From a virus (taxonomy: Duplodnaviria > Heunggongvirae > Uroviricota > Caudoviricetes): a DNA stretch of 38,561 bases. Position 1 is the first letter of the stretch. The number at the start of each line of letters is the position of its first letter. The translations under genes were made by a program, and so were the position numbers. The notes under the pieces are model-generated. The model worked only from the letters and a program-made list of their open reading frames with translations. It did no database searches and had not been told where the DNA came from. The DNA is taken from the IMG/VR virus record IMGVR_UViG_2703718787_000016; one strand, given 5' to 3'. Positions 1 to 38,561 of the stretch are shown piece after piece.

Positions 1-480
1 TCATAGCGGCTGCCAGGTTATGGGTAACCACTGCCAGGCGGCACCGGGTTCCATCTGGGCCAGCTTCATGACATAACGCGGTTGTTGAGATAAAGCGTCC
101 AGCTTCGGCATTAATAAAGTTTGTGCGGCGTTATAAAAAACCGGTTCGAGATTCTTCGGCAGACTGGTCAACGTTTCGTTACGCAGCAGTTTCGCCACGC
201 CTTGTGGATTGATATAGAGCGGAACGATGCCATCAGTGGGTATTACATCCACCATTGCCGGGCGGGTTTTATTCAGTGTTTGCAGCGCGTTATTAACCAG
301 CGTGTCATCGAGGGAGAAAAGCAGCGTTTTGTTTTGCATCGCCAGCGACACGCGGAAAAAATAATCCGACATTAATTGATCGGGTTGCGCCGCCTGCGCT
401 TTCGGATACTGGCCGTATCGGGAACTCACTTCGCGACGCCAGATTTGCCCTTCGCCCTGCTGAGTCTGGCTTACCGGCAA
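1..480 (-). CDS. Host chromosomal gene, partial (5' end in window, 3' end beyond position 1); product not recognised
   Basis: Open frame on the minus strand running off the window edge. It begins with TTG at 480..478 preceded by an AAGG Shine-Dalgarno-like motif, with no in-frame ATG upstream before a stop at 537..535. It lies outside the prophage, left of the candidate att core. Confidence 0.45.
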   Translation of the reverse strand: MPVSQTQQGEGQIWRREVSSRYGQYPKAQAAQPDQLMSDYFFRVSLAMQNKTLLFSLDDTLVNNALQTLNKTRPAMVDVIPTDGIVPLYINPQGVAKLLRNETLTSLPKNLEPVFYNAAQTLLMPKLDALSQQPRYVMKLAQMEPGAAWQWLPITWQPL

Positions 481-526
481 AACACCTTCTGGAGATTTAA
501 CACACCTTACTCCCCTTGATGATTTA

Positions 527-537
527 CTTATTTTTCA
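527..537. other. Candidate attL core (cttatttttca)
   Basis: Near-identical to ttttattttca at 37321..37331. On the minus strand each copy contains an in-frame TGA: the one at 37331..37329 terminates the right-hand host ORF. Inexact match, so the core boundaries are uncertain. Confidence 0.3.
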
Positions 538-581
538 ATGACTAAATCAAAACAAGGGGAGCAAATTAACGCAAATTACAA

Positions 582-1589
582 CTAGTCAATGGACAGTTTA
601 TGGACACTATCAGCCAGCGGATTAAAGCTAATCGCATCCTGTAAAAAGTCCGGTGAAAAATGCGCATACGTCATCGTTTGTTGAATCGTGGCGTGCCCAA
701 GGATTCGCTGTAACGTAACGATATTTCCGCCGTTCATCATGAAATGCGTGGCGAACGTGTGACGCATAACGTGAGTCGCCTGACCTTTGGGTAAATCCGG
801 TTTCACCTCCTGAAGGATATCCCGAAAACGGATGTAATCAGCCTGGTACAATAGCCCGGTTTTTCGGGTTTTTATCAACGAAAGCACCGTATCAGAAACA
901 GGAACCGCGCGGGATTTTCCATTCTTTGTGTTAAAGAACATTACGCGGTTACCAACGATATGCTCACCACGTAAGCCAGCTGCTTCCCCCCACCTTGCGC
1001 CAGTGGAAAGACACAGAACAGCAACACGACGCGCATCCCCCTCGAGTCGTTCAAGCAGCCGATCAATCTCATCATCTGAAAGAAAGGCCATTTCTGTATT
1101 CCTGACCTTGAGCTTACGTATTCCACGCACCGGGTTTTCGTTATGGAAAACCTCCGCATCAATCAGCGAGGTAAACATTGCAGACAAGGCGCACAAATCA
1201 CGATTAACACTGGAGGGCATTAATCCGGCCTGTAATTTGTCTGAACGATACCCGAGCATAAACTTTCGCGTCATCTCACTGGCGCGGGGGTCCCTCATCT
1301 CACGGTTTATTTTTTCCAGCCTGACCCTGTAAGTATCCCCGTAAGGCTGATTCCGGCCATCAAGCACCCACCAGGCATCTATCAGTTCGGATAACCGACG
1401 CTGATCAGCTGGCTTGGCCTGCCACGGTTTATCGTGGAAATTCTGCAAAACATACCTTTCAAACTCCTGTGCCTTTGACTTCAGGGTAAAAATCTTACGG
1501 ATCCGCTTTCCTTCCGTCCCTTGCGGTCTTACATCAACCTTATAACGCCCGTCTTTGAGTTGCTTAATCGACATGATTAGCCCCTCCAA
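582..1589 (-). CDS. int: Tyrosine site-specific integrase, P2 Int-like
   Basis: 335 aa with phage-integrase catalytic-domain signatures (ARWGEA, HVMRHTFATHFMMNGGNI, LQRILGHATIQQTMTYAHF, carrying the Arg, His-x-x-Arg and Tyr residues). Located at the prophage end next to att and upstream of the repressor, as in P2. Confidence 0.93.
   Translation of the reverse strand: MEGLIMSIKQLKDGRYKVDVRPQGTEGKRIRKIFTLKSKAQEFERYVLQNFHDKPWQAKPADQRRLSELIDAWWVLDGRNQPYGDTYRVRLEKINREMRDPRASEMTRKFMLGYRSDKLQAGLMPSSVNRDLCALSAMFTSLIDAEVFHNENPVRGIRKLKVRNTEMAFLSDDEIDRLLERLEGDARRVAVLCLSTGARWGEAAGLRGEHIVGNRVMFFNTKNGKSRAVPVSDTVLSLIKTRKTGLLYQADYIRFRDILQEVKPDLPKGQATHVMRHTFATHFMMNGGNIVTLQRILGHATIQQTMTYAHFSPDFLQDAISFNPLADSVHKLSID
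589..607. promoter_or_regulatory. Candidate integrase arm-type binding sites (P' arm): two direct ATGGACA repeats
   Basis: ATGGACAgtttATGGACAc overlapping the 3' end of int; a 17/19-identical copy sits at 37287..37305. Resembles the TGTGGACA arm-site consensus I recall for P2 Int. Confidence 0.4.
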
Positions 1590-1643
1590 CGGATGAATCA
1601 GCCGTACACTCTCTACGGGATGAAACCCGCTCGATGTACAGCG

Positions 1644-1985
1644 TTAGCCAGCATTGCGACGAGATCGGGGTGATTTTTGGGTAATGCCGATTGAAACCTG
1701 ATCGCCCTCCGACTGAATGGAGCCATCAAGAGAGAGAGCCGGGGCAACCTGCCCGGCAGCGGGAAATGTTTTGTCGTGAAGTATCCACATAGTGTATTTT
1801 TCGAATCGCTCGACTTGGATTACTTTTTCTACAACCTCAATTCGCGCAGGTTTATATCCAGACTCATAATTTCCTATAGTTCCTACAGAAACTCCCGTTA
1901 CTTGCGAAAACTGAGATTGTGTAAGGTTTTCCGCGTTTCTGATTGCCTTTAGTTTTTTGGCGTAATCTCTTGACATGTTCACCAT
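1644..1985 (-). CDS. Immunity repressor, P2 C-like (HTH_XRE)
   Basis: An N-terminal helix-turn-helix (LTQSQFSQVTGVSVGTIGNYESG) follows the ATG at 1985. It is transcribed with int and divergent from or overlapping the early operon start. The listed ORF extends to a GTG at 2126, so the start is uncertain. Confidence 0.75.
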   Translation of the reverse strand: MVNMSRDYAKKLKAIRNAENLTQSQFSQVTGVSVGTIGNYESGYKPARIEVVEKVIQVERFEKYTMWILHDKTFPAAGQVAPALSLDGSIQSEGDQVSIGITQKSPRSRRNAG

Positions 1986-2008
1986 ACGATGAGTATCCTC
2001 TATTCGAA

Positions 2009-2026
2009 CTTCACCACAGGGTGAAG
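2009..2026. promoter_or_regulatory. Perfect inverted repeat CTTCACC-ACAG-GGTGAAG in the repressor/early-operon switch region (candidate operator)
   Basis: A 7-bp perfect palindrome with 4-bp spacer between the repressor start and the early operon start. Confidence 0.3.
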
Positions 2027-2088
2027 TAAACAAATCAAAACAAACCTTCATGATGCGCGACAAGCGCACCAACGCAAGAGGATAGCAA

Positions 2089-2613
2089 ATGCGGAAGTCA
2101 ATTGCCGATAAAGAGTTATCTGACACACAAGCCCTTCAGGAAAACGACAGCATCACCGAATCCGTTGGCGCGGCAAACGACGATGAACACCAAGAGGAAA
2201 AGAAAAAACGCACCTACAAAAAAGGGGCAACCTTGCGACTGGATGGCCCGGTAGCCGGACTTTGCTCACTTGAAAAAGGGGCAGCCTATATCGGGTTGAC
2301 AAAAGCTGCATTGCGCGTGGCGCTTCAGCGAAATCAGATGCCTGGACACAAGACCCGTTCAAACCCTGAAGATGAAAATTCGGATGGCGTATGGTGGTTT
2401 AACGCCAGAGAGTGGGACAAGCTGGCTGACGAACTACCAGAATGCGAGCCGCCAGAATGGCACAACTGGAAAAGCTACTGGACGTACGACCGACAGAAAA
2501 GAAAGTTTTCCCCGGCAAACAAAGAAGACTGCCAGACCATCAATGGAAAGCGGGTTTACACAGGAAGAAAGTCAAAACTGGAGCAACACCAATACAGCGA
2601 AGGCAACCAGTGA
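2089..2613 (+). CDS. Cox/Apl-like early regulator (excisionase/repressor-type HTH); true start possibly internal (TTG at 2233)
   Basis: The segment GAAYIGLTKAALRVALQRNQMP...GVWWFNAREWDKL resembles the P2 Cox HTH and the following aromatic motif, and it is the first gene of the rightward early operon. The ORF is longer than Cox; an AAGGGG Shine-Dalgarno motif precedes TTG 2233. Confidence 0.5.
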   Translation: MRKSIADKELSDTQALQENDSITESVGAANDDEHQEEKKKRTYKKGATLRLDGPVAGLCSLEKGAAYIGLTKAALRVALQRNQMPGHKTRSNPEDENSDGVWWFNAREWDKLADELPECEPPEWHNWKSYWTYDRQKRKFSPANKEDCQTINGKRVYTGRKSKLEQHQYSEGNQ

Positions 2614-2664
2614 CATCAAAACAAACCGGGATCATTAAGAGCATCGGGATTTGAATGTGTTGAC

Positions 2665-2859
2665 ATGACTGACTCCACTCAAACAAAAGACTTATACAGC
2701 GATTTACGCTTCATCATCATACAACAGCAATCAGGCAGGATGGATCCAACACGTGCAAGCAAGGCCTGGAAAGAAGCCCTTACCGATCAGGGGATCGATG
2801 TAATTAGCGAAGTCATGGCTGAAGTGATTTTTAGGCTGACAAGAGACGAATCACTGTAA
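2665..2859 (+). CDS. Hypothetical early protein (64 aa)
   Basis: ORF in the early operon, same strand, no recognisable motif. Confidence 0.4.
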   Translation: MTDSTQTKDLYSDLRFIIIQQQSGRMDPTRASKAWKEALTDQGIDVISEVMAEVIFRLTRDESL

Positions 2860-2884
2860 TCATCGCATAAGGACCGAGTGAAGA

Positions 2885-3208
2885 ATGAAGCAACAACGAA
2901 ATGCACGCATCAATAACAACACCGAACGCCACGTTGCACGCCAGCACTTCCGTAAAAATAGTGCGACCGCAACCACTGAAATCCATACCACACCAGACGG
3001 TCATCCGGTAAAACAAACCGGAAAGCACACCTGGGCGATTGGCGACACTGGCATCGTTATTCACAAAAGTTTTCGTAGCCCTGTTACTGGCAGATTTAAT
3101 TTTACCCTGACTCGCGGAGATGATTACTTCGGACAGGACTTCACATTTTTTGAAGCGTTAAGAACGGTCGATCGGTTAATGACTGGTCGTAATTTTCACG
3201 CTAAATGA
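2885..3208 (+). CDS. Hypothetical early protein (107 aa)
   Basis: ORF with ATG after a GAG-rich Shine-Dalgarno-like region in the early operon; no recognisable motif. Confidence 0.5.
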   Translation: MKQQRNARINNNTERHVARQHFRKNSATATTEIHTTPDGHPVKQTGKHTWAIGDTGIVIHKSFRSPVTGRFNFTLTRGDDYFGQDFTFFEALRTVDRLMTGRNFHAK

Positions 3209-3221
3209 TACAGATGAAAAC

Positions 3222-3437
3222 ATGGAAACATACAAAATTAAAAATATTGAACACCATGACGGTTTTTTCAGCACTGAACATGTTGCTTGTGTTGTCAGGA
3301 TTTTCAATGAAGTAGATGTGATTTTGAAGCAAAACATAAAGCTTGAAATCATCGCAAAAAGCGAAGCCGACGCCATTGAAATAAAAAAAGCTATTGAACG
3401 CCAGATAATGCCGTTGACAAGTATCATTGCATTTTAA
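3222..3437 (+). CDS. Hypothetical early protein (71 aa), AT-rich
   Basis: ORF in a visibly AT-rich patch of the early operon. Confidence 0.45.
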   Translation: METYKIKNIEHHDGFFSTEHVACVVRIFNEVDVILKQNIKLEIIAKSEADAIEIKKAIERQIMPLTSIIAF

Positions 3438-3455
3438 GCAACAGGAAAAATAACC

Positions 3456-3695
3456 ATGACCAGAAATTACAAAGAAATCGTCAATCAGATCATTAAGGCT
3501 TACAGCCACCGCATCGCAAAATCACCCGAGTTCATACGCATAATGGAGACGCGCTCATTAATGCAAGGACTGAACGGGTTGGCACTGGCCGCATTGGCAG
3601 CTAACGATATTGATGCCACTATCGAAATAAACAACCTGTTATTAGACATTGAAAAAGGCGGAAACATAGAACCCTACAATCTGGAGGCCGCATGA
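3456..3695 (+). CDS. Hypothetical early protein (79 aa)
   Basis: ORF preceded by a GGAAAA-rich leader; ATGA overlap with the next small ORF suggests translational coupling. Confidence 0.5.
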   Translation: MTRNYKEIVNQIIKAYSHRIAKSPEFIRIMETRSLMQGLNGLALAALAANDIDATIEINNLLLDIEKGGNIEPYNLEAA

Positions 3696-3817
3696 GCGTA
3701 TTTCTTTCGTGGGTAATTCTGATTATCTCCGTGCTTATGACAATCGGCATTATGCGAATTATCCACACACTGAAGGATATCGAATTATTCTTTACCGGCG
3801 ATAAACGCCGTAAATAA
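3692..3817 (+). CDS. Small hydrophobic peptide (41 aa, one predicted transmembrane segment)
   Basis: Translation MSVFLSWVILIISVLMTIGIMRIIHTLKDIELFFTGDKRRK; its start overlaps the upstream stop (ATGA). Below the ORF-track size cutoff, so the call is tentative. Confidence 0.35.
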   Translation: MSVFLSWVILIISVLMTIGIMRIIHTLKDIELFFTGDKRRK

Positions 3818-3829
3818 AGCGAAAACCTT

Positions 3830-3931
3830 ATGAAGAATGTAAAAGCAATACTCACCATCGCCACTGTATGGGTGATATTTCAGGTGAGTGCGCTTATCTG
3901 GTTAGCCCTGAAGAATCTGGGGATAATCTGA
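3830..3931 (+). CDS. Small hydrophobic peptide (33 aa, one predicted transmembrane segment)
   Basis: Translation MKNVKAILTIATVWVIFQVSALIWLALKNLGII, immediately downstream of the 41-aa peptide. Tentative. Confidence 0.3.
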   Translation: MKNVKAILTIATVWVIFQVSALIWLALKNLGII

Positions 3932-4007
3932 AGCCGAAAGCAGGCGCGGAATAACACCAGAAAACACACGAACAATTAATTAAGGCATTCATGCCTTCGG
4001 ATTCCCT

Positions 4008-4262
4008 TTGTCTTTTTTCATGAGTCAACAAATGAGAACAGCCGAATCACCCGGCAGAAAAATAACCGCCAGACCAGCTAACCATCATGCACATATCAGC
4101 ATTGCCGCAAGAAAAGCCGAGCGTGCGCATATCTGCGAATTGCTGCATGACCTGGTTAACACAGCGAGAGAGAAGCACACCTCCCCGGAGGAAACCTGTT
4201 CATCCATTGAACGACTGATTGCAATACTCGCCAACCCAGACGAACTGAAGGGGTGCGCATAA
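4008..4262 (+). CDS. Hypothetical early protein (84 aa or shorter)
   Basis: ORF whose stop overlaps the exonuclease start (TAATG). Confidence 0.4.
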   Translation: MSFFMSQQMRTAESPGRKITARPANHHAHISIAARKAERAHICELLHDLVNTAREKHTSPEETCSSIERLIAILANPDELKGCA

Positions 4263-4843
4263 TGAACCATCTCATGATTGACACCGAAACACTGGGTAAC
4301 GGACCGGACGCAGCCATATTCGCGATTGGGGCGGTGTTTTTCGACCCGTTCACCGGAAAGCTGGGCAAGCAGTTTGAGAAATTCATCGACCCGGTGGATT
4401 CAGAACGCAACGGCGGAACCGTCAATGCAGCCACCGCTGTATGGTGGGCCGGACAATCCGTGGAAGCCAGAGCCTGCCTGCGCAACGCAGATGGAACAGA
4501 GCTGGCAGCAGTGACCGAATTTCTGGCGTTCATTTCACGCAATATGCATGACGAAAGCCCGGGCAATTCACTGAACATATGGTGTAAGGGCGCATCCTTC
4601 GATTTCCCGATCCTGAAATCCGCCATAACACGCACAGCCGGAGAAAAAAGCATCCCCTGGTGCTACTGGAACGAGCGCTGTATGCGCCCGCTTATCGCCA
4701 TGGCTGAATCAACTGGATGGAAAATGCCAGGCAGATCAGGCAAAGAGACCATTGCTCACACCGCGCTGGGCGACGCCGTTTACCAGGCAAAGGTCGTGTC
4801 AGAAATCTGGCAGCGCTTCACAACACCATTCCTGAACATATGA
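4262..4843 (+). CDS. 3'-5' exonuclease, DEDDh (DnaQ-like) family
   Basis: Exo motifs MIDTETLG (Asp-x-Glu), FDFPIL and HTALGDAVYQA (His...Asp). Confidence 0.8.
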   Translation: MNHLMIDTETLGNGPDAAIFAIGAVFFDPFTGKLGKQFEKFIDPVDSERNGGTVNAATAVWWAGQSVEARACLRNADGTELAAVTEFLAFISRNMHDESPGNSLNIWCKGASFDFPILKSAITRTAGEKSIPWCYWNERCMRPLIAMAESTGWKMPGRSGKETIAHTALGDAVYQAKVVSEIWQRFTTPFLNI

Positions 4844-5076
4844 GGTGAAGCCATGGTCGCCATCCTGAATGTGTGTTGCTGCCCCCCCCTGAACGTGGAA
4901 AGAAAAGCCCGCGCATCGCTGCGTTTATTCCGCGACGGCGTGCGGAATTTTTCACGCATAAAACCCCACGACTACCTGGTAATAAGAATCGGTTTTCGCT
5001 GGCGATTGCTGAGCAAAAACAACGGGGCGTCATGGGATTTATTAACGCACGAAACCTATAACAAAGAGGCCGCGTT

Positions 5077-6021
5077 ATGAGCAAAGAACTGTTATCCGGC
5101 ACGCCGCTTAAATGGGTGGGCGGAAAAAGTCGCATCATGAACACACTGAAGGCGCATCTGCCAGAAGCAGACTGCCTGGTTGAGCCGTTTGTGGGTGGCG
5201 CATCGGTATTCATGAACACCAGTTACAAGCGTTACATCCTGGGTGATTCCAATGGTGCGCTGATTAATTTCTACCGGCAAGCCAGGGACAACACCGACAG
5301 CCTGATCGACGAGGCGAAAACCCTGTTCCTGAACCACAACAACAGGGGTGACTATCTCATCATTCGCGAAACCTTTAACGCAGAGAATCATGCCTTCCTG
5401 AACAGCAGAACGGGAATAAGCGACCGCCGTGAACTGCGACTGGCCGCCATGTTTTTGTACCTGAACCGACACAGCTTTAACGGTTTGTTCCGCGTGAACG
5501 GAAAAGGCGATTTTAACGTGCCTTTCGGCTGCTACCGCAAGCCCTACTTCCCTGAGCGGGAAATCCGCGCATTTGCAGACAAGGCAAACAGCACCCGAAC
5601 GCTGCTTATCCACGCAGATTTTAAGGATACGCTGAACTCTGCCAGTCACCTGTTCGGCATGGGCAACACGCTTTGCGTGTACTGTGATCCCCCTTACCTG
5701 CGATTCAGTGGCCGGGACAATTTCACCGCCTACGGAAAACCATTCGATGAAGACGAGCACGTTCGTCTGAGGGCAGCGCTTGACCGCCTTTCACAGGAAA
5801 CGGGCGGCATGACCAGCATCACCATATCCAATTCCGACACACCGGAAACCAGACGCATTTATCAGGGTTACCGGATGAACGCCATCCAGGCACCACGAAG
5901 CGTTGGCGCAAGAACCCGGGAATCAGCACCGGAGGTTATCGCCACCCTGAGATGCATCACATCCGCCTTATCAACGGTTCGCACTTCTGCGCCACGAACA
6001 TGGAAGAAGTACGCGTGCTGA
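5077..6021 (+). CDS. dam: DNA adenine (N6) methyltransferase, Dam family
   Basis: N-terminal KWVGGK and FVGGASVF (SAM-binding motif I) and the catalytic DPPY motif (VYCDPPYLR). Confidence 0.9.
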   Translation: MSKELLSGTPLKWVGGKSRIMNTLKAHLPEADCLVEPFVGGASVFMNTSYKRYILGDSNGALINFYRQARDNTDSLIDEAKTLFLNHNNRGDYLIIRETFNAENHAFLNSRTGISDRRELRLAAMFLYLNRHSFNGLFRVNGKGDFNVPFGCYRKPYFPEREIRAFADKANSTRTLLIHADFKDTLNSASHLFGMGNTLCVYCDPPYLRFSGRDNFTAYGKPFDEDEHVRLRAALDRLSQETGGMTSITISNSDTPETRRIYQGYRMNAIQAPRSVGARTRESAPEVIATLRCITSALSTVRTSAPRTWKKYAC

Positions 6022-6049
6022 CAGCAACACGCAATACGGGAGGTAAAGC

Positions 6050-6400
6050 ATGGCAGTGATTTATATCGCCGGTCCCATGACCGGATGCAAAGACCACAAC
6101 AGGACGGCATTTTGCGTGGAGGACCTGAAACTTCGGTGCGCCGGAAACATCGTTCTTAATCCTGCCGTACTGCCTGACGGATTAAGCCAGCAGCAGTACA
6201 TGAGCATTTGTATTCCGATGCTCATGTGTGCCGATGCCATTTACTTACTGGAAGGCTGGGTGGATTCAGCTGGCGCGCGGGCGGAGTACGTAATGGCACT
6301 CAAACTGAACATGCCAGTGTCATTCCCGGAAAACCGGGCAGCCGGAGAAACCATCGCGCAGCTGCTTCACAAATCAAAAGCCGCACAGGCGACTGAGTAA
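6050..6400 (+). CDS. DUF4406-like (nucleoside 2-deoxyribosyltransferase-like) protein
   Basis: N-terminal MAVIYIAGPMTG motif typical of this family; immediately downstream of dam. Confidence 0.6.
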   Translation: MAVIYIAGPMTGCKDHNRTAFCVEDLKLRCAGNIVLNPAVLPDGLSQQQYMSICIPMLMCADAIYLLEGWVDSAGARAEYVMALKLNMPVSFPENRAAGETIAQLLHKSKAAQATE

Positions 6401-6838
6401 CCGACCGGAGATCGAAACATGATTGCGCGAAGAGCTGCCAACCGCCTCACAGGCTTTATTCCAGGCAAGGTTGATCATGCACTCCATCACGGGGCTGTCA
6501 CTTTCCTCAACAAAGGAGAGGCGCGCAATCATGCATTCCGGAGTGAGCACGTGGCGCTGGCTAATCAGTCTTTGATAGCTAAGCGCCTGCCATTCAGCCT
6601 TTTCAGCTCTGATAGAAAGAGAGGCAGCCATGACCTGCCACACCAGAAAGAGCACCACACTGGCGAAAACAAACGTTGCGCTGTCGCAAAAAATGAATGC
6701 GGCAACAATCGCAAGGAAAGCGCTAATCCTCAGAACCAAGGAAGCGCGACGGTGGAGAAGGCTTGTCATGTGTTCAAGCCAGTAGCTGTACCACAGGTCA
6801 AAAAGAATTTCGTAATCAGAAGGGAGCTTATCACTCAT
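6374..6838 (-). CDS. Predicted membrane protein encoded antisense to the early operon (about 154 aa)
   Basis: ATG at 6838 followed by two long hydrophobic segments (ISAFLAIVAAFIFC, FVFASVVLFLVWQVMAASL). The plus strand across this stretch has no convincing gene. Confidence 0.4.
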   Translation of the reverse strand: MSDKLPSDYEILFDLWYSYWLEHMTSLLHRRASLVLRISAFLAIVAAFIFCDSATFVFASVVLFLVWQVMAASLSIRAEKAEWQALSYQRLISQRHVLTPECMIARLSFVEESDSPVMECMINLAWNKACEAVGSSSRNHVSISGRLLSRLCGF

Positions 6839-7221
6839 CAGAAACACCCCGCGTATGCAGACAATCACCAGTTGCCAGGTGATATTAATTCGCCACATTC
6901 TAACCACATCAGCACGCAACACAAAAACCGCTTGCCAGCGCTCGTCGTGTCGGGTTACATTTCCGCTGCACCTCATAAAACGGGTGCCGGGATTTCCACC
7001 CTGCTGACTAGCAAAGCGCACTACCGCGCCAGCGGTTTTTTTGTGCGTACTGTATTGCCACGTTTTTTTCGCATCAGAATTATGGCGGGGCGTACGGGGC
7101 CGACTTCGGTCGGGCCGGGTTCTTTGCTAGCCGGTTGTGGAAACCCTGTACGTCTCGCCACCCCGAGTTTTCCACCTCCGGTTGGTGAGTTTTCAAAACT
7201 TACTAGCAAAGAGGCCACACC

Positions 7222-7443
7222 ATGGCAAACCGCAAGCAACAGCGCGCCCGCGCTGAGCGTCTTCACATCCGCAGCGAAATCAACCGCAGACTTTTCCGCG
7301 CAACACGCGTCGCGCAAATCATGCATATCAACATGCTGCATGAGCGCACGCACGCACTATCAAACCGTTACTGCGCTGCCGTCTTCAGCTATCTGGCCGA
7401 AGACCTGGCAGAACTGCAAAGCCTCATCAACCAGCACCGATAA
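7222..7443 (+). CDS. Hypothetical basic protein (73 aa)
   Basis: ATG preceded by an AGAGG Shine-Dalgarno motif; Arg-rich N-terminus. Confidence 0.4.
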   Translation: MANRKQQRARAERLHIRSEINRRLFRATRVAQIMHINMLHERTHALSNRYCAAVFSYLAEDLAELQSLINQHR

Positions 7444-7511
7444 ACCACATCCGGAAGCTATCCCACACCTGCACGCGGGAGGCTTCCGCACATCTGTTAC
7501 CGGAGGTTCTC

Positions 7512-7928
7512 ATGAAGAGCGTTAAGGGACTTTCAGATATTCAGGACTTCTTTAACTGGATGTGGGCGGTGGATCCCCTGCTGGCTTCCCGCCTGAACAA
7601 CTGGCACGACTATTACCGCCGCGCCTGTAAACAGGCCGCCCGCAGCATCACCACATACGGGGATTTCTCCTTCACCGTTGACGGTCGTTACCGCGTGGAC
7701 GTGAAAGGTGACGGTGATGGCTTTGGTTTATTTCACATCAACGGCACCGACAGTACCGCCATCAGCTGGTCATCGTCAGAGATGGCACTGGTTCTGGAAA
7801 TGACAACCCACAGCGTGGCCGTGAAAGGCATATACACCGCAGAAGACTTTATCGGTGAATACCAGCGCCTTCTCGTGCTGTACCGCGCGGCGTTTCAGGA
7901 GGTCACTGGCGGGGAGTACGACGCATGA
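7512..7928 (+). CDS. Hypothetical protein upstream of the replication gene (138 aa)
   Basis: GGAGG Shine-Dalgarno motif before the ATG; stop overlaps the gpA start (ATGA). Confidence 0.55.
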   Translation: MKSVKGLSDIQDFFNWMWAVDPLLASRLNNWHDYYRRACKQAARSITTYGDFSFTVDGRYRVDVKGDGDGFGLFHINGTDSTAISWSSSEMALVLEMTTHSVAVKGIYTAEDFIGEYQRLLVLYRAAFQEVTGGEYDA

Positions 7929-36103: not shown

Positions 36104-36406
36104 ATGTTTCATTGTCCATTCTGCGGCGCATCTGCCCGGATCCGTACCAGTAAAGCCGCCAATGATACCGGCACCATCCGCTACAAATACTATCAGTGCA
36201 ATAACCTTGAGTGCAGCGCCACATTTTCAACAATGGAAAGTGTGCACAGAATTATTGGCCAGCCTCAGTTGATCTTCCACGATAAAGATATTCCACGGGA
36301 GACAATGCGCAAATCCCATCAGGGACGCAGTCAGTTAACGCTACAACTGGAGGATTGCGGTATGGCTTTAAAACCAGTACATTACGCGCGGGTGCCTTTC
36401 GGCTGA
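36104..36406 (+). CDS. ogr: Late transcription activator, Ogr/Delta zinc-finger family, with a C-terminal extension
   Basis: MFHCPFCGASARIRTS...YYQCNNLECSATFSTMESVHR matches the P2 Ogr Cys4 zinc-finger core; the ORF continues about 30 codons beyond the usual Ogr length into the first hok-locus repeat. Confidence 0.85.
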   Translation: MFHCPFCGASARIRTSKAANDTGTIRYKYYQCNNLECSATFSTMESVHRIIGQPQLIFHDKDIPRETMRKSHQGRSQLTLQLEDCGMALKPVHYARVPFG

Positions 36407-36540
36407 CGGCTGGAAGGAAAACCTGAAGGCCGGATGTGGAAAGGCCCCGAGTCAAACATATTGTTTAACCCGAGGCCCTAACCATTCCTACCCTAGACAA
36501 GTGGAAGGTTAGCGCCTCCCTGTAAAAGGAGTCAAGCGCT

Positions 36541-36681
36541 ATGCCGCAAAAAACGATCATCGTGAGCATTTTATGCTTAACCATGTTGTTGGCCATCTGG
36601 ATGATACACCGTTCGCCGTGTGAGTTCAGACTTAACATCATGTGGTCAGAATTTGCGGCGTTCTTGCAGTGTAAACAGTAA
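36541..36681 (+). CDS. hok: Hok/Gef-family type I toxin (46 aa), copy 1
   Basis: Translation MPQKTIIVSILCLTMLLAIWMIHRSPCEFRLNIMWSEFAAFLQCKQ. Shares the Hok family signature with HokA as I recall it (N-terminal MPQK, transmembrane segment, R-x-S-x-C-E, E-x-AAFL-x-CK). AAGGAG Shine-Dalgarno motif 10 nt upstream. Below the ORF-track size cutoff. Confidence 0.6.
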   Translation: MPQKTIIVSILCLTMLLAIWMIHRSPCEFRLNIMWSEFAAFLQCKQ

Positions 36682-36772
36682 GAAACCGCAGCGGGGGTGA
36701 AAGCCCCCGCTATCCGGTTGTCGGGTTCAGTCGATATGGCACCCCTTTCTCCATTGGATTACAGACGTATTT

Positions 36773-36796
36773 GCCCGCAATATGCGGGCTTTTTTG
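36773..36796 (+). terminator. Rho-independent terminator downstream of hok-like copy 1
   Basis: GCCCGCA-ata-TGCGGGC stem-loop followed by TTTTTT. Confidence 0.5.
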
Positions 36797-37012
36797 CCGC
36801 CCTCCCCCTAAACAGTTTCAACACTGAGCATTGCGCGCACAAAGGGAAATCAGTAGATTACACGTGGGTGCCTTTCGGCTGACGGCTGGAAGGATTACCT
36901 GAAGGCCGGATGTGAAAAGGCCCCGAGTCAAACATTTGTTTAACCCGAGGCCCTAACCATCTAACCTTCGCAAGTGGAAGGTTAGCGCCTCTTTGAAAAA
37001 GGAGCAAGCGCT

Positions 37013-37153
37013 ATGCCGCAAAAAACGATCATCGTGAGCATTTTATGCTTAACCATGTTGTTGACAGTCTGGATGATACACCGTTCGCCGTGTGAGTTCA
37101 GACTTAACATCATGTGGTCAGAATTTGCGGCGTTCTTGCAGTGTAAACCGTAA
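37013..37153 (+). CDS. hok: Hok/Gef-family type I toxin (46 aa), copy 2
   Basis: Translation MPQKTIIVSILCLTMLLTVWMIHRSPCEFRLNIMWSEFAAFLQCKP, differing from copy 1 at three residues; same Shine-Dalgarno context. Confidence 0.6.
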   Translation: MPQKTIIVSILCLTMLLTVWMIHRSPCEFRLNIMWSEFAAFLQCKP

Positions 37154-37246
37154 GAAACCGCAGCGGGGGTGAAAGCCCCCGCTATCCGGTTGCCAAAGGT
37201 TCGGTCGAAAGTAGCACCCTCACACGCAAGTCACAAAGAAAAACAA

Positions 37247-37278
37247 AGCCCGTAGCGTAAAAACTGCGGGCTTTTTTG
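37247..37278 (+). terminator. Rho-independent terminator downstream of hok-like copy 2 (possibly bidirectional with the convergent host gene)
   Basis: AGCCCG...CGGGCT stem followed by TTTTTT. Confidence 0.45.
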
Positions 37279-37286
37279 TTTCAAAG

Positions 37287-37305
37287 ATGGACATTATATG
37301 GACAC
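37287..37305. promoter_or_regulatory. Candidate integrase arm-type binding sites (P arm): two direct ATGGACA repeats
   Basis: ATGGACAttatATGGACAc, 17/19 identical to 589..607 at the other prophage end. Confidence 0.4.
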
Positions 37306-37331: not shown

Positions 37332-38561
37332 GTTAATTAATCTCATGCAAAAACCGCCCGCAGGCGCTTTGCTTTCGTGCGCACCAATATTTTGCGTAAA
37401 CAGTTTCCCTGGCAATTGCGCTTGTTCGGCAGTGCCATCAAACTGACCGACAAACAGCGGGGTTTGCAATTTTGAGTCTTCATACCAGCACAGCCCCGCG
37501 GCACCGTCTAACGCCCCAGTCAGCTTGTCGTTTTCCTGGCTGATGTGCGAAAGCATCTCTTCGGCAATACCGTGTGAATACGGCACCGCCACACAGAAGC
37601 TGGCCCCGGCAGGCATACTGTTCCAGACCGGCGTAAAATCGAAACTGGCATCCACACTCGCGGATTCATCATTTAACGCCAGAAAGCTATGCCAGCCGTC
37701 GTTGCTCATTTCGAAACGCACTCCGGCAAAAGAAGGCATTAATCGCTGGTAGCCAAAACCCAGCAACCTGGCGCTGACCACGATGCGCTGGCGTACTGGT
37801 GTTTTTCCGGCAGTACGCTCTTCCAGACCGAAGCTGGCTTGCCAGCGTTTTTTGCCGCTCAACAAATCACCTGCGATCGCCGTGGCTTCGGTATCCTGCT
37901 GATCATCTTTAAACAACATATCCGTGCTGGAAAACACCAGCATCTTGTCCTGATAAGTCGCGAACATCAGGGCGTTATTGCCGTTATAGCGCAACTGATA
38001 AACAGGAATAGTTTCACTATTTATCTTGATGCTACTGATTTCCGTTTTGCTTAACTGGCTGTCGCTGGTAGCGGCAAACAACAATGGCTCCAGCAGTTTG
38101 CTTAAACCACTGCGCTGGATCAGCACCATATAATGTGAAAGATGGCCTTGTTTATCGTGCCACAGCGCTGCCTGCGCGGGCTGATCTAAGAGTGACGAAA
38201 AGAGCTTATCTTTCAGCGTGAGATCGTGTTCATAGACAATACGACGAATGCTGCCTTCAATGCCCAGACGATCGGCATGATTCTGATAATAGAAAACGAA
38301 ATCTTCGCTCAGAACATCGTGGAGAAACGGAATGGTGAGGAGATCTTTGGGAAGCTGGCTCAGAGAGTCGCTGTCGAGAAAGAGGTCCGGCTCATTGAGA
38401 TCGATTTGCAGATTGTTGTGCACCACCAGCGGCGACAACGTTTTTTCTGGCCCACTGCCAGCATATTGCAACGCCCAGACGCCAGCGGAAAGCAGTGCTA
38501 TTGCGCCAAAACCTACAAGACCATAGAACCGCCAGCCTTTCGCCTTTTTTTCACCACTCAT
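37329..38561 (-). CDS. Host gene: membrane-anchored protein of unrecognised family (410 aa), start at or beyond the window edge
   Basis: N-terminal signal-anchor-like segment (WRFYGLVGFGAIALLSAGVWAL), then a large soluble region; stop lies within the candidate att core, so the prophage sits at its 3' end. Confidence 0.7.
   Translation of the reverse strand: MSGEKKAKGWRFYGLVGFGAIALLSAGVWALQYAGSGPEKTLSPLVVHNNLQIDLNEPDLFLDSDSLSQLPKDLLTIPFLHDVLSEDFVFYYQNHADRLGIEGSIRRIVYEHDLTLKDKLFSSLLDQPAQAALWHDKQGHLSHYMVLIQRSGLSKLLEPLLFAATSDSQLSKTEISSIKINSETIPVYQLRYNGNNALMFATYQDKMLVFSSTDMLFKDDQQDTEATAIAGDLLSGKKRWQASFGLEERTAGKTPVRQRIVVSARLLGFGYQRLMPSFAGVRFEMSNDGWHSFLALNDESASVDASFDFTPVWNSMPAGASFCVAVPYSHGIAEEMLSHISQENDKLTGALDGAAGLCWYEDSKLQTPLFVGQFDGTAEQAQLPGKLFTQNIGAHESKAPAGGFCMRLIN

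What the first reader, a model, noticed from the sequence alone, without database searches (positions are those of the whole stretch)
36381..37283. Tandemly duplicated hok-like type I toxin loci between ogr and attR
Seen in sequence: two direct repeat units of about 476 bp, each with a 46-codon ORF carrying the Hok/Gef family signature (MPQK..., transmembrane segment, R-S-P-C-E-F, E-F-AAFL-Q-CK), an AAGGAG ribosome-binding site, a GC-rich hairpin (gcgggggtgaaagcccccgc) right after the stop, and a terminator about 110 nt downstream. The copies differ by a few substitutions and diverge in the 3' untranslated region. Established knowledge: hok loci encode membrane-depolarising toxins controlled by an antisense RNA and mRNA fold-back structures, and hok/sok has been reported to exclude T4. 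Inference: the prophage carries two complete post-segregational killing or abortive-infection cassettes as cargo at its right end; the duplication may raise toxin dosage or reflect recent recombination.
Basis: partly seen in the sequence, partly recalled or inferred. Interest (0 to 1): 0.6.

Follow-up and report, generated by a model that had tools for sequence, protein, structure and literature searches.

The report
Two tandem Hok toxin cassettes in prophage
The right end of this P2-like E. coli prophage carries two head-to-tail copies of a Hok-type membrane-toxin/antisense-RNA cassette; the gene family is known and already annotated, and the only unusual points are the rare duplication and the lack of the usual "mok" leader reading frame.

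Summary
Two direct-repeat units (about 36355-36797 and 36831-37281, spacing 472-476 nt) each hold a 46-codon ORF that passes Pfam's Hok/Gef threshold. Each has a leader matching the Rfam hok-leader model (E 3e-9 and 4e-8, below gathering score), a conserved hairpin after the stop codon, an intrinsic terminator, and predicted 5'-3' fold-back pairing.

A Sok-like antisense RNA of about 62-64 nt is predicted at the position where sokA is annotated in E. coli K-12.

RefSeq already calls both ORFs "Hok/Gef family protein", and PHROGs files them under phrog_251. The unit occurs in 1750 of 5426 complete E. coli genomes. In viral contigs, 91 of 123 units lie directly after ogr, so one unit beside the attachment site is normal for this P2-like lineage. 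Shiga-toxin phages carry one after lom.

The tandem junction is rare (21 of 5426 genomes). It is neither an assembly artefact nor a recent event.

The one departure from classical hok/sok is the absence of a mok frame overlapping hok. Both copies lack it, as do 47 of 75 relatives. How the toxin is translated, and whether it serves prophage addiction, abortive infection or lysis, is unresolved.

Verdict: a member of a known kind, of modest interest.

The parts
36104..36406 (+). ogr (late-gene activator, zinc finger). Its 100-codon ORF runs through the hok-1 promoter and stops at a TGA 15-17 nt into the hok-1 leader.
   Evidence: Pfam Ogr_Delta E 7e-16; PGAP annotation. A 16-nt deletion relative to phage Chuche and L008 removes the normal ogr stop codon.
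36355..36383 (+). Predicted weak hok-1 promoter, TTGCGG-17-TACATT, with +1 at about 36390.
   Evidence: Read. TTGC and TAnATTAC are conserved in 13 units. It falls below the consensus-scan threshold, which fits the weak hok promoter recalled for plasmid R1 (my own knowledge).
36390..36797 (+). hok-1 mRNA unit of about 408 nt: leader, ORF, 3' UTR and terminator.
   Evidence: Rfam RF01794 match at 36390-36552, 43.9 bits, E 4.4e-8. Fold -168 kcal/mol, z -6.7, with 5' GGGUGCC paired to 3' GGCACCC. Terminator at 36773-36789.
36437..36500 (-). Predicted Sok-like antisense RNA 1 of about 64 nt. Its promoter is TTGACT (36535-36530), an 18-nt spacer, then TAACCT (36511-36506). The terminator hairpin lies at 36477-36443.
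   Evidence: Fold shows a 5' tail, an 18-bp hairpin and a U run, z -5.6. The -10 block AGGTTAGCGCCTC is invariant in 75 units. The 3' end falls at leader nt about 44-47, as for the annotated sokA of K-12. The hairpin has compensatory pairs. The scan tool did not call this promoter.
36541..36681 (+). hok-like toxin ORF 1, 46 aa: MPQKTIIVSILCLTMLLAIWMIHRSPCEFRLNIMWSEFAAFLQCKQ.
   Evidence: Pfam HOK_GEF 26.6 bits against cut-off 22. phrog_251 E 1.7e-18. RefSeq WP_001135719.1 'Hok/Gef family protein'. 45% identical to K-12 HokA.
36689..36712 (+). G+C-rich hairpin just after the stop codon. It probably protects the 3' end of the processed mRNA.
   Evidence: Paired in 99.8% of cells, with 4 compensatory pairs across 74 units (helix 19). 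The role is inferred from the last stem-loop of truncated R1 hok mRNA (PMC9841398).
36727..36744 (+). fbi-like 3' element (UCAGUCGA...GGCACCC) that pairs with the 5' end (36390-36406).
   Evidence: helices 1 and 2 are paired in 98.8% and 87.9% of cells.
36831..36859 (+). Predicted hok-2 promoter, TTGCGC-17-TAGATT, with +1 at about 36866.
   Evidence: Read; aligned with unit 1 and 11 other units.
36866..37281 (+). hok-2 mRNA unit of about 416 nt.
   Evidence: Rfam RF01794 match at 36866-37023, 48.3 bits, E 3e-9. Fold -177.8 kcal/mol, z -9.4, with 5' GGGUGCCUUUCGG paired to the 3' region. Terminator at 37245-37274.
36913..36973 (-). Predicted Sok-like antisense RNA 2 of about 61 nt. Its promoter is TTGCTC (37007-37002), a 17-nt spacer, then TAACCT (36984-36979). 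The terminator hairpin lies at 36952-36919.
   Evidence: Fold z -6.9. Its 5' tail differs from that of copy 1: cognate duplex -40.5 kcal/mol against -19.1 for the other copy.
37013..37153 (+). hok-like toxin ORF 2, 46 aa: MPQKTIIVSILCLTMLLTVWMIHRSPCEFRLNIMWSEFAAFLQCKP.
   Evidence: Pfam HOK_GEF 27.8 bits. phrog_251 E 4.6e-19. RefSeq WP_001135720.1. The same protein sits in the att-proximal unit of the arrays in L002 and L006.
37161..37219 (+). Post-stop hairpin (37161-37184) and fbi-like element (37201-37219) of unit 2.
37287..37305 (.). Direct repeat ATGGACAttatATGGACAC, read as integrase arm-type sites of attR. A similar pair lies next to int near position 600. The prophage/host junction follows at about 37355-37375.
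   Evidence: Sequence read; the assignment as arm-type sites is by analogy with P2 (my own knowledge) and was not tested. DUF2138 profile break. Other genomes carrying the same phage end stop matching at window 37370-37382.

Best explanation
The region holds two adjacent, independently transcribed type I toxin-antitoxin modules of the hok/sok kind. They belong to a prophage-borne subfamily of 46-residue toxins whose closest named relative is HokA.

Proposed mechanism for each unit:
1. A weak constitutive promoter makes a stable mRNA of about 410 nt.
2. The 5' end of that mRNA (GGGUGCC...) pairs with a 3' element (...GGCACCC). This closes the molecule, and the hok ribosome-binding site stays in a local hairpin.
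3. Slow 3' trimming back to the G+C-rich hairpin after the stop codon would remove the 3' partner. The 5' end then refolds onto GGAAAGGCCCC, which exposes the antisense target.
4. A short unstable antisense RNA (about 62-64 nt, made from a promoter overlapping the hok ribosome-binding site) pairs with the leader and keeps the toxin off.
5. When transcription of the locus stops, the antisense RNA decays first. The membrane toxin is then made and the cell is depolarised or lysed. Prophage loss, host shut-off by another phage, or prophage induction could each stop transcription.

What is shown here: family membership of the toxin, leader homology, the conserved and partly covarying RNA helices, and the genomic distribution.

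What is inferred: the transcripts themselves, the processing step, the antisense RNA, toxicity, and the biological role. Neither copy has a mok frame, so the step that opens the hok ribosome-binding site is unknown.

One such unit between ogr and att is standard equipment of a large P2-like lineage. This prophage carries a rarer two-unit array, probably built by recombination between units.
For: Toxin:
- Pfam HOK_GEF is above the gathering score for both ORFs.
- phrog_251 matches over the full length, E about 1e-18.
- Identity to K-12 HokA is 45%.
- NCBIfam's best model is HokA.
- Invariant family motif: M.Q........C.T.....W..H.S.CE.R........AAFL.C...
- dN/dS is 0.13-0.29 among 46 distinct ORFs.

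Leader:
- RF01794 hits lie on the hok-sense strand, E 3e-9 and 4e-8.
- The same model hits the K-12 hokA leader at 70 bits. The annotated sokA lies antisense inside that match and ends at leader nt about 44, as predicted here.

Folds:
- z-scores are -6.7 and -9.4 with 5'-3' closure.
- The tac-type stem forms in the truncated copy-1 mRNA and in the isolated leaders of both copies.

Comparative support, 74 distinct units:
- 84.5% of cells are paired, against 35-44% when partners are slid.
- 326 double-change cells, against 136 in shuffles.
- Compensatory pairs occur in the post-stop hairpin, in the Sok terminator hairpin, and in a long-range helix joining the antisense target to the 3' UTR.

Distribution:
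- 1750 of 5426 E. coli genomes carry the unit, annotated Hok/Gef in every listed hit.
- 91 of 123 viral-contig units lie just downstream of ogr.
- The tandem junction occurs in 21 genomes.
Against: - No ORF with ATG, GTG or TTG spans the hok start in copy 1. Copy 2 has only a 14-codon TTG frame inside the ribosome-binding-site hairpin loop.
- At the position of R1 mok (after the conserved GAGG), 63 of 75 units have no frame reaching the hok ribosome-binding site, even when near-cognate start codons are allowed.
- Thermodynamic modelling leaves the hok ribosome-binding site paired in every state tested (unpaired probability 0.15 or less). The units could therefore be translationally silent.
- The Rfam hits are below the gathering score (44-48 bits against 59).
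- Neither predicted promoter reaches the consensus-scan threshold. The only antisense promoter-like sites the scan found lie inside the ORF.
- The 5' element was the search pattern used to collect relatives, so its invariance says nothing for or against the pairing.
- No transcript, toxicity or phenotype data exist for this subfamily in the literature I could search.
Confidence: 0.85

Rival explanations
1. The units are decaying relics. They are hok-derived sequences that are still transcribed and folded but are no longer translated, because the mok coupling frame has been lost. This would resemble the inactivated chromosomal hok loci of E. coli K-12.
For: - No mok frame in either copy, and none in 47 of 75 relatives.
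- mok translation up to the hok ribosome-binding site is mandatory in plasmid R1 (PMC9841398, PMC4147584).
- The hok ribosome-binding site is predicted to be paired in all modelled states.
- The leader ORF starting at the conserved ATG varies from 1 to 79 codons.
Against: - 74 of 75 distinct units keep an intact ORF of 46-47 codons (44 in one unit).
- dN/dS is 0.13-0.29, and three Cys residues plus the CE.R...AAFL motif are invariant.
- Promoter blocks, the ribosome-binding site and all major helices are conserved with compensatory changes.
- The unit is kept in a third of complete E. coli genomes and in functional phages such as Chuche, 933W and Sp5.
- RNA-structure constraints could lower dS, but they would not preserve the reading frame and motif.
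Confidence: 0.2
2. The duplication is an assembly artefact or a very recent, functionally meaningless duplication in this one strain.
For: Tandem repeats of about 475 nt are a classical source of assembly error. The two ORFs are 97% identical.
Against: - The copies differ by about 12-16% across the leader and have unrelated 3' UTR ends and terminators.
- Each copy groups with position-matched units of other arrays. Copy 2 matches L002_c and L006_b; the 3' end of copy 1 matches L006_a and L028.
- The junction occurs in 21 complete genomes from different countries and hosts.
- Arrays of three units exist.
Confidence: 0.02
3. The antisense regulator is not the Sok-position RNA. Instead it is a longer RNA started inside the toxin ORF (promoter-like TGGCCA-16-TAAAAT at 36595-36568 and CTGTCA-16-TAAAAT at 37067-37040). 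That RNA would cover the hok start codon and ribosome-binding site directly, which would explain how control works without mok.
For: - These are the only sigma-70-like sites the scan reports on the antisense strand, and they occur in both copies at 9 of 12 matches.
- Such an RNA would overlap the translation initiation region, as in many other type I systems.
- Three of the four nucleotide differences between the two ORFs fall in this -35 hexamer.
Against: - The scan found 3 sites where 1.2 +/- 1.1 are expected by chance.
- The TAAAAT box comes from the codons AGC-ATT-TTA of the MPQK-type toxin and is absent from the MSQK and MTQI types, which share the rest of the architecture.
- No terminator lies closer than the Sok-position hairpin.
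Confidence: 0.1

Closest known systems
hokA/sokA of the E. coli K-12 chromosome (Pedersen and Gerdes hok family)
   Same: - It is the closest named toxin: 45% identity, the same MPQK start, and the W-M-I...S-x-C-E...AAFL-x-CK motif.
- NCBIfam's best model is HokA.
- The leader matches the same Rfam model on the same strand, and the antisense gene lies at the same leader position.
   Different: - The toxin is 46 residues rather than 50.
- It scores far below the HokA equivalog cut-off (37-38 bits against 89).
- K-12 annotates a mokA (pseudo)gene overlapping hokA, whereas the window units have no such frame.
- The window units are prophage cargo, whereas hokA is a chromosomal locus inactivated by IS150.
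hok/sok (parB) of plasmid R1
   Same: - A Hok/Gef toxin and an mRNA of about 400 nt with a long leader.
- 5'-3' fold-back (tac/fbi) and a tac stem in the processed form.
- A cis-antisense RNA of about 64 nt whose -35 box overlaps the hok ribosome-binding site (from my recollection of the R1 sequence).
- A protective stem-loop at the processed 3' end (PMC9841398).
   Different: - There is no mok. The R1 mok ribosome-binding motif GAGG is conserved, but no start codon follows it.
- The subfamily is almost absent from plasmids: tblastn finds it in 32 of 72,556 plasmid records.
- The toxin is shorter than R1 Hok (46 against 52 residues, PMC8621323).
hokW-sokW of Shiga-toxin phage Sp5 (Takada et al. 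2021, PMC8621323)
   Same: It is a prophage-encoded hok/sok-type module in E. coli. It was shown to be toxic, to be repressed by its antisense RNA, and to be switched on by prophage induction. It is therefore the best functional analogue for a phage-borne copy.
   Different: - It is a different locus and toxin (51 residues, MKQQKAM...ESEK, from the primers).
- Sp5 carries that locus in addition to one unit of the present 46-residue subfamily, which lies just downstream of lom.
- The label 'MokW-like host killing' attached to the 46-residue family comes from PHROGs and does not imply identity with hokW or mokW.
Tandemly repeated type I loci (ibs-sib, ldr-rdl, zorO/zorP)
   Same: Type I toxin-antitoxin loci tend to be duplicated in tandem within one intergenic region, each copy with its own antisense RNA (PMC2887945, PMC3919570). 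Here the two predicted antisense tails have diverged: cognate duplexes are -43 and -41 kcal/mol, against about -19 for the cross pairs.
   Different: The toxin families are different. Tandem hok units are the exception here, with the junction in 21 of 5426 genomes against 1750 genomes carrying the unit.

Membership tests
Hok/Gef toxin family (Pfam PF01848) | A small hydrophobic protein that matches the HOK_GEF profile above its gathering score. | tested here: met
   26.6 and 27.8 bits against cut-off 22, covering profile positions 7-42 of 42. phrog_251 E about 1e-18. PGAP name 'Hok/Gef family protein'.
Hok/Gef toxin family (Pfam PF01848) | An N-terminal transmembrane segment followed by a periplasmic tail with a conserved Cys and the E-x-R ... 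AAF motif. | tested here: met
   Invariant pattern M.Q........C.T.....W..H.S.CE.R........AAFL.C.. across 46 distinct ORFs; alignment with HokA. Membrane topology itself was not predicted.
HokA equivalog (NCBIfam NF007290) | A score above the curated equivalog cut-off. | tested here: not met
   36.6 and 37.9 bits against cut-off 89. The toxin is a relative of HokA, not HokA itself.
hok/sok-type type I toxin-antitoxin locus (plasmid R1 and chromosomal hokA-E) | A long structured leader homologous to other hok leaders (Rfam RF01794, which models the hok-sense leader). | tested here: inconclusive
   Full-length model matches at E 4.4e-8 and 3e-9, but at 43.9 and 48.3 bits against a gathering score of 59. 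The K-12 hokA leader scores 70.1 bits.
hok/sok-type type I toxin-antitoxin locus (plasmid R1 and chromosomal hokA-E) | Pairing of the mRNA 5' end (tac) with a 3' fold-back element (fbi) in the full-length transcript. | tested here: met
   Present in the minimum-free-energy and centroid folds of both units, z -6.7 and -9.4. Paired in 98.8% and 87.9% of cells across 74 units, with only one-sided changes. The result is computational only, and the 5' arm was fixed by the search pattern.
hok/sok-type type I toxin-antitoxin locus (plasmid R1 and chromosomal hokA-E) | Refolding after 3' trimming, in which the 5' end forms a local tac stem and the antisense target hairpin appears. | tested here: inconclusive
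   Predicted for the truncated copy-1 mRNA and for the isolated leaders of both copies. Truncated copy 2 (cut at 37200) kept pairing between its 5' end and the residual 3' sequence and did not show the stem. The stem is 99.5% paired but invariant, so there is no covariation; the target hairpin is 88% paired with 3 compensatory pairs. Processing itself cannot be tested here.
hok/sok-type type I toxin-antitoxin locus (plasmid R1 and chromosomal hokA-E) | A cis-encoded antisense RNA (Sok, about 64 nt) complementary to the leader, with its own promoter. | tested here: inconclusive
   - Predicted RNAs of about 61-64 nt with a 5' tail and a terminator hairpin, z -5.6 and -6.9.
- The -10 box TAACCT is invariant in 75 units.
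- The position matches the annotated sokA.
- The promoter scores only 7-8 of 12 consensus matches by my count and was not called by the scan.
- No expression data.
hok/sok-type type I toxin-antitoxin locus (plasmid R1 and chromosomal hokA-E) | A mok reading frame that starts in the leader, overlaps the hok start, and couples hok translation to Sok control. | tested here: not met
   - No such frame in copy 1.
- Copy 2 has only a 14-codon TTG frame inside the ribosome-binding-site loop.
- 47 of 75 units have none.
- 63 of 75 have none at the R1 position, even with near-cognate starts.
- Copy 1 has a 13-codon AUU frame that ends 2 nt before the hok GGAG; its significance is unknown.
hok/sok-type type I toxin-antitoxin locus (plasmid R1 and chromosomal hokA-E) | Toxicity of the peptide, and killing or growth arrest when the locus stops being transcribed. 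| not testable with these tools
   Needs expression and curing or rifampicin experiments. The only indirect support is purifying selection on the ORF.
Known anti-phage defence systems (PADLOC-DB 2.0) | A match to a model of a catalogued defence protein. | tested here: not met
   No hit at E up to 1. The two P2 defence-hotspot papers do not mention hok or ogr.

The most novel reading that the evidence does not exclude
This prophage-borne 46-residue subfamily may be a mok-less variant of hok/sok. In it, toxin translation would be controlled without a leader ORF. One possibility is competition between the GAGGC:GCCUC target stem and the CCUCC:GGAG hairpin that sequesters the ribosome-binding site. 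Another is an unrecognised trigger linked to phage development, since ogr reads directly into unit 1.

The hypervariable antisense tail and target segment would then act as a specificity code. That code would let several units, in tandem here and on co-resident prophages elsewhere, work side by side without cross-repression.

If so, the ogr-att slot would be a third, RNA-regulated cargo site of P2-like phages, beside the two described defence hotspots.
Probability: 0.25. Interest if true: 0.45.

Novelty: new member of a known kind. Interest (0 to 1): 0.25.

Why it matters
The finding adds little that is new. Hok/Gef toxins in prophages are well known, and these exact proteins already carry RefSeq and PHROG names.

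Three points have modest value:
- A single conserved hok unit is the terminal, att-adjacent gene of a large P2-like lineage. It is present in about a third of complete E. coli genomes, yet no member of this subfamily appears to have been tested experimentally. hokW, the locus usually cited for phage-borne hok, is a different locus.
- Most members lack mok, the element through which Sok acts in the textbook system. The subfamily therefore offers a natural test of how hok translation can be controlled without it.
- The tandem copies differ most in the predicted antisense recognition segment. This makes a simple system for asking how paralogous type I modules avoid cross-talk.

Tried and rejected
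1. I first took the Stx-phage homologue to be the published hokW-sokW. The primers in the paper (MKQQKAM..., 51 residues) show that hokW is another locus of Sp5, so its data cannot be transferred directly.

2. I looked for a mok frame in three ways: canonical starts spanning the hok start, the conserved leader ATG at -103, and near-cognate starts after the GAGG that serves as the mok ribosome-binding site in R1. None of these is conserved.

3. I tested the idea that antisense binding shifts the hok ribosome-binding site into its hairpin. The modelled unpaired probability changes only from 0.15 to 0.02 in copy 1 and not at all in copy 2. The idea is kept only as a hypothesis.

4. I scanned one genome per species with a coding-region pattern. 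It returned only Salmonella enterica and two Firmicute records, which I suspect are contamination. This gave no extra diversity.

5. I searched the attL and attR neighbourhoods for an exact repeat of 10 nt or more and found none. The junctions were placed instead from the split DUF2138 profile and from where other genomes stop matching.

6. I assumed the window was collinear with strain STEC2018-607. It is collinear only from 6854 onward, at 99.5% identity, and the early region is mosaic.

7. Weak Rfam hits to Thr_leader and isrK within the finding are only the intrinsic terminators.

8. The Pas sRNA preprint and the two P2-hotspot papers hold nothing on this locus.
Full report
**Observation**

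The region contains two head-to-tail units. The repeat finder reports 197 nt at 96% identity (36524-36720 / 36996-37192), 100 nt at 88% (36371-36470 / 36847-36946), and two shorter blocks, with spacing 472-476 nt.

- Each unit holds a 46-codon ORF (36541-36681 and 37013-37153).
- GGAG lies 8-9 nt upstream of each ATG.
- A G+C-rich hairpin follows each stop codon (36689-36712, 37161-37184).
- An intrinsic terminator closes each unit (36773-36789, 37245-37274).
- The ORFs differ at 4 of 138 nt. The units diverge completely after about 36720 and end in different terminators.

**Context**

The window is a P2-like prophage inserted in a DUF2138-family gene of E. coli.

- Host gene: Pfam profile positions 404-560 lie at window 4-480 and positions 2-404 at 37332-38561.
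- Left end: integrase (585-1589), a helix-turn-helix protein that I read as the CI-type repressor, and Cox.
- Right end: gene D and ogr (36104-36406, Ogr_Delta E 7e-16).
- After unit 2 comes the repeat ATGGACAttatATGGACAC (37287-37305), which I read as an integrase arm-type site. The host junction follows at about 37355-37375.

The same two-copy sequence is present at 94-100% identity in about 10 complete E. coli genomes. One of them, STEC2018-607, has the same insertion site.

**What the ORFs are**

- Both pass Pfam HOK_GEF (26.6 and 27.8 bits against a cut-off of 22).
- Both match phrog_251 over its whole length (E about 1e-18).
- RefSeq names them "Hok/Gef family protein" (WP_001135719.1 and WP_001135720.1).
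- The nearest named toxin is K-12 HokA at 45% identity. NCBIfam's best model is HokA, but far below its equivalog cut-off.
- Across 46 distinct ORFs of the subfamily, the pattern M.Q........C.T.....W..H.S.CE.R........AAFL.C.. is invariant and dN/dS is 0.13-0.29. The peptide is therefore under purifying selection.

**RNA anatomy**

The Rfam model RF01794 is named "sok", but it models the hok-sense leader. It hits the K-12 hokA leader on the hokA strand at 70 bits, and the annotated sokA lies antisense inside that match. The same model matches both units end to end on the + strand, at E 4.4e-8 and 3e-9 but below the gathering score.

Predicted transcripts start at about 36390 and 36866, seven bases after the -10 boxes TACATT and TAGATT. 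These belong to weak promoters of the form TTGCGN-17-TAnATT, conserved in 13 units.

- Closed form: the full-length RNAs of 408 and 416 nt fold with z-scores of -6.7 and -9.4. Both close the 5' end GGGUGCC... onto a 3' element ...GGCACCC. This is the tac/fbi arrangement of hok mRNAs (PMC9841398).
- Open form: removing the 3' partner lets the 5' end of copy 1 fold onto GGAAAGGCCCC, the tac stem, and a GAGGC...GCCUC hairpin appears. The isolated leaders of both copies fold the same way. The truncated copy-2 mRNA I tested, cut at 37200, kept pairing with the residual 3' sequence.
- Antisense RNA: on the opposite strand, a promoter whose -35 box overlaps the hok ribosome-binding site would give RNAs of about 61-64 nt. 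It reads TTGACT-18-TAACCT in unit 1 and TTGCTC-17-TAACCT in unit 2. Each RNA has a single-stranded 5' tail and a 17-18 bp terminator hairpin (z -5.6 and -6.9). The 3' end falls at leader nt about 44-47, as for sokA.

**Comparative test**

A pattern scan of viral contigs plus loci from E. coli genomes and phages gave 75 distinct units.

- Closed fold: 84.5% of cells are paired, against 35-44% with slid partners. There are 326 double-change cells, against 136 in shuffles.
- Post-stop hairpin: 99.8% paired, with four compensatory pairs.
- Sok terminator hairpin: four compensatory pairs.
- A long-range helix joining the antisense-target segment to the 3' UTR: six compensatory pairs.
- Hairpin holding the ribosome-binding site: 97-100% paired.
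- Open leader fold: 90.9% paired.

The tac/fbi and tac stems are almost invariant. The 5' arm was my search pattern, so these stems are consistent with the model but not independently supported.

The leader is more conserved than the coding region, apart from two hot spots. These are the loop of the Sok terminator hairpin and the segment complementary to the Sok 5' tail.

**The departure from classical hok/sok**

In R1, Sok acts through mok, and mok translation up to the hok ribosome-binding site is mandatory (PMC4147584, PMC9841398).

- Copy 1 has no ATG, GTG or TTG frame spanning the hok start. Copy 2 has only a 14-codon TTG frame inside the ribosome-binding-site loop.
- Among the 75 units, 47 have no spanning frame. 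The ORF from the conserved leader ATG varies from 1 to 79 codons.
- The GAGG that serves as the mok ribosome-binding site in R1 is conserved. Even so, 63 of 75 units have no frame from there to the hok ribosome-binding site, even with near-cognate starts.
- Copy 1 has a 13-codon AUU frame that ends 2 nt before the hok GGAG.
- Modelling leaves the hok ribosome-binding site paired in all states.

How the toxin is translated is therefore unresolved. A relic explanation cannot be dismissed, but the conserved ORF and regulatory elements argue against it.

**Distribution and the duplication**

- The unit occurs in 1750 of 5426 complete E. coli genomes (2978 places), and PGAP names it Hok/Gef in every listed hit.
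- In 120 viral contigs, 91 of 123 units lie just downstream of an ogr homologue and 17 downstream of lom. Only 3 contigs have two units.
- Single-unit examples include phage Chuche, a Salmonella prophage, and prophages at serS and ihfA.
- Shiga-toxin phages 933W, Sp5 and phage 86 carry one unit after lom.
- The subfamily is nearly absent from plasmids (32 of 72,556 records).
- The tandem junction is found in 21 genomes. Three-unit arrays exist in a related P2/HP1-like element at serS.

Copy 2 shares its protein and 3' end with the att-proximal unit of those arrays. The 3' end of copy 1 matches internal units. The array is therefore older than this strain and mosaic, not an artefact or a fresh duplication.

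The predicted antisense tails of the two copies have diverged. Cognate duplexes are -42.8 and -40.5 kcal/mol, against -19.7 and -19.1 kcal/mol for the cross pairs. This suggests partial insulation.

**Literature**

- The published prophage system hokW-sokW is a different Sp5 locus with a 51-residue toxin. It is toxic, repressed by its antisense RNA, and activated on induction, where it aids phage release (PMC8621323).
- Tandem duplication is a known habit of type I loci. Strain O157 Sakai was reported to carry 14 Hok/Gef genes (PMC2887945).
- The P2 defence-hotspot papers do not mention hok or ogr, and PADLOC has no matching model.

I found no experimental work on the 46-residue subfamily.

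**Verdict**

These are two hok/sok-type type I toxin-antitoxin cassettes of a known, already annotated family, carried as att-adjacent cargo of a P2-like prophage. The word "complete" and the idea of a recent duplication are not supported, and the function remains open among addiction, abortive infection and lysis aid.

Confidence in the identity is about 0.85. Confidence that both copies are functional toxin systems is about 0.55. I file it as a new member of a known kind, with interest 0.25.

Noticed in passing
window 36104-36406: The ogr ORF is 100 codons, against 86 in phage Chuche and L008. A 16-nt deletion removes its normal TAA, so it reads through the hok-1 promoter and stops at a TGA 15-17 nt into the hok-1 leader. 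Transcripts of ogr may therefore run into unit 1 with a 5' extension, which would prevent the normal 5'-end pairing.
   Followed up: partly
window 6968-7042 and 7078-7165 (+): Rfam matches above the gathering score to isrK (58.9 bits) and to the C4 antisense RNA (80.3 bits), side by side in the early region of this P2-like prophage. I recall this RNA pair from P1/P7 and Gifsy-type immunity or antirepressor control, not from P2.
   Followed up: no
window 21319-23385 (+): A 688-residue ORF with DUF1737, SASA (sialic-acid acetylesterase) and DUF6645 domains sits among the lysis and tail genes. I recall such esterases as moron genes of Shiga-toxin phages; here one appears as cargo of a P2-like prophage.
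   Followed up: partly
window 1-7700 compared with L134 (E. coli STEC2018-607): The window is 99.5% identical to the STEC2018-607 prophage from 6854 to the end. The immunity and early region (1102-7682) is only 92-95% identical, with gaps. This is a mosaic left arm in an otherwise identical phage at the same insertion site.
   Followed up: partly
L134 34795-35007 (related strain; roughly window 3550-3770): PGAP annotates a 'ParE family toxin-like protein' next to a DNA adenine methylase in the early region of the sister prophage. This may be a second toxin-type cargo gene. I did not check it in the window itself.
   Followed up: no
L010 and L012 (genome-contig hits): Exact matches to the hok coding pattern occur in records labelled Planococcaceae MAG and Vagococcus sp. 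These are probably enterobacterial contamination of those assemblies.
   Followed up: no
L096:8385-8874: One viral-contig unit is interrupted about 40 nt into the leader by unrelated sequence that looks like an insertion element. This echoes the IS150 disruption of hokA/sokA in K-12.
   Followed up: no
IMG/VR loci L018, L026, L041, L058, L064 and others (pattern at 271-287, minus strand): Many provirus contigs of about 35 kb end at the same distance from the unit's 5' end, roughly at the hok stop codon. This suggests that hok is routinely the last called gene of predicted P2-like proviruses, and that the 3' UTR and terminator are trimmed off.
   Followed up: no
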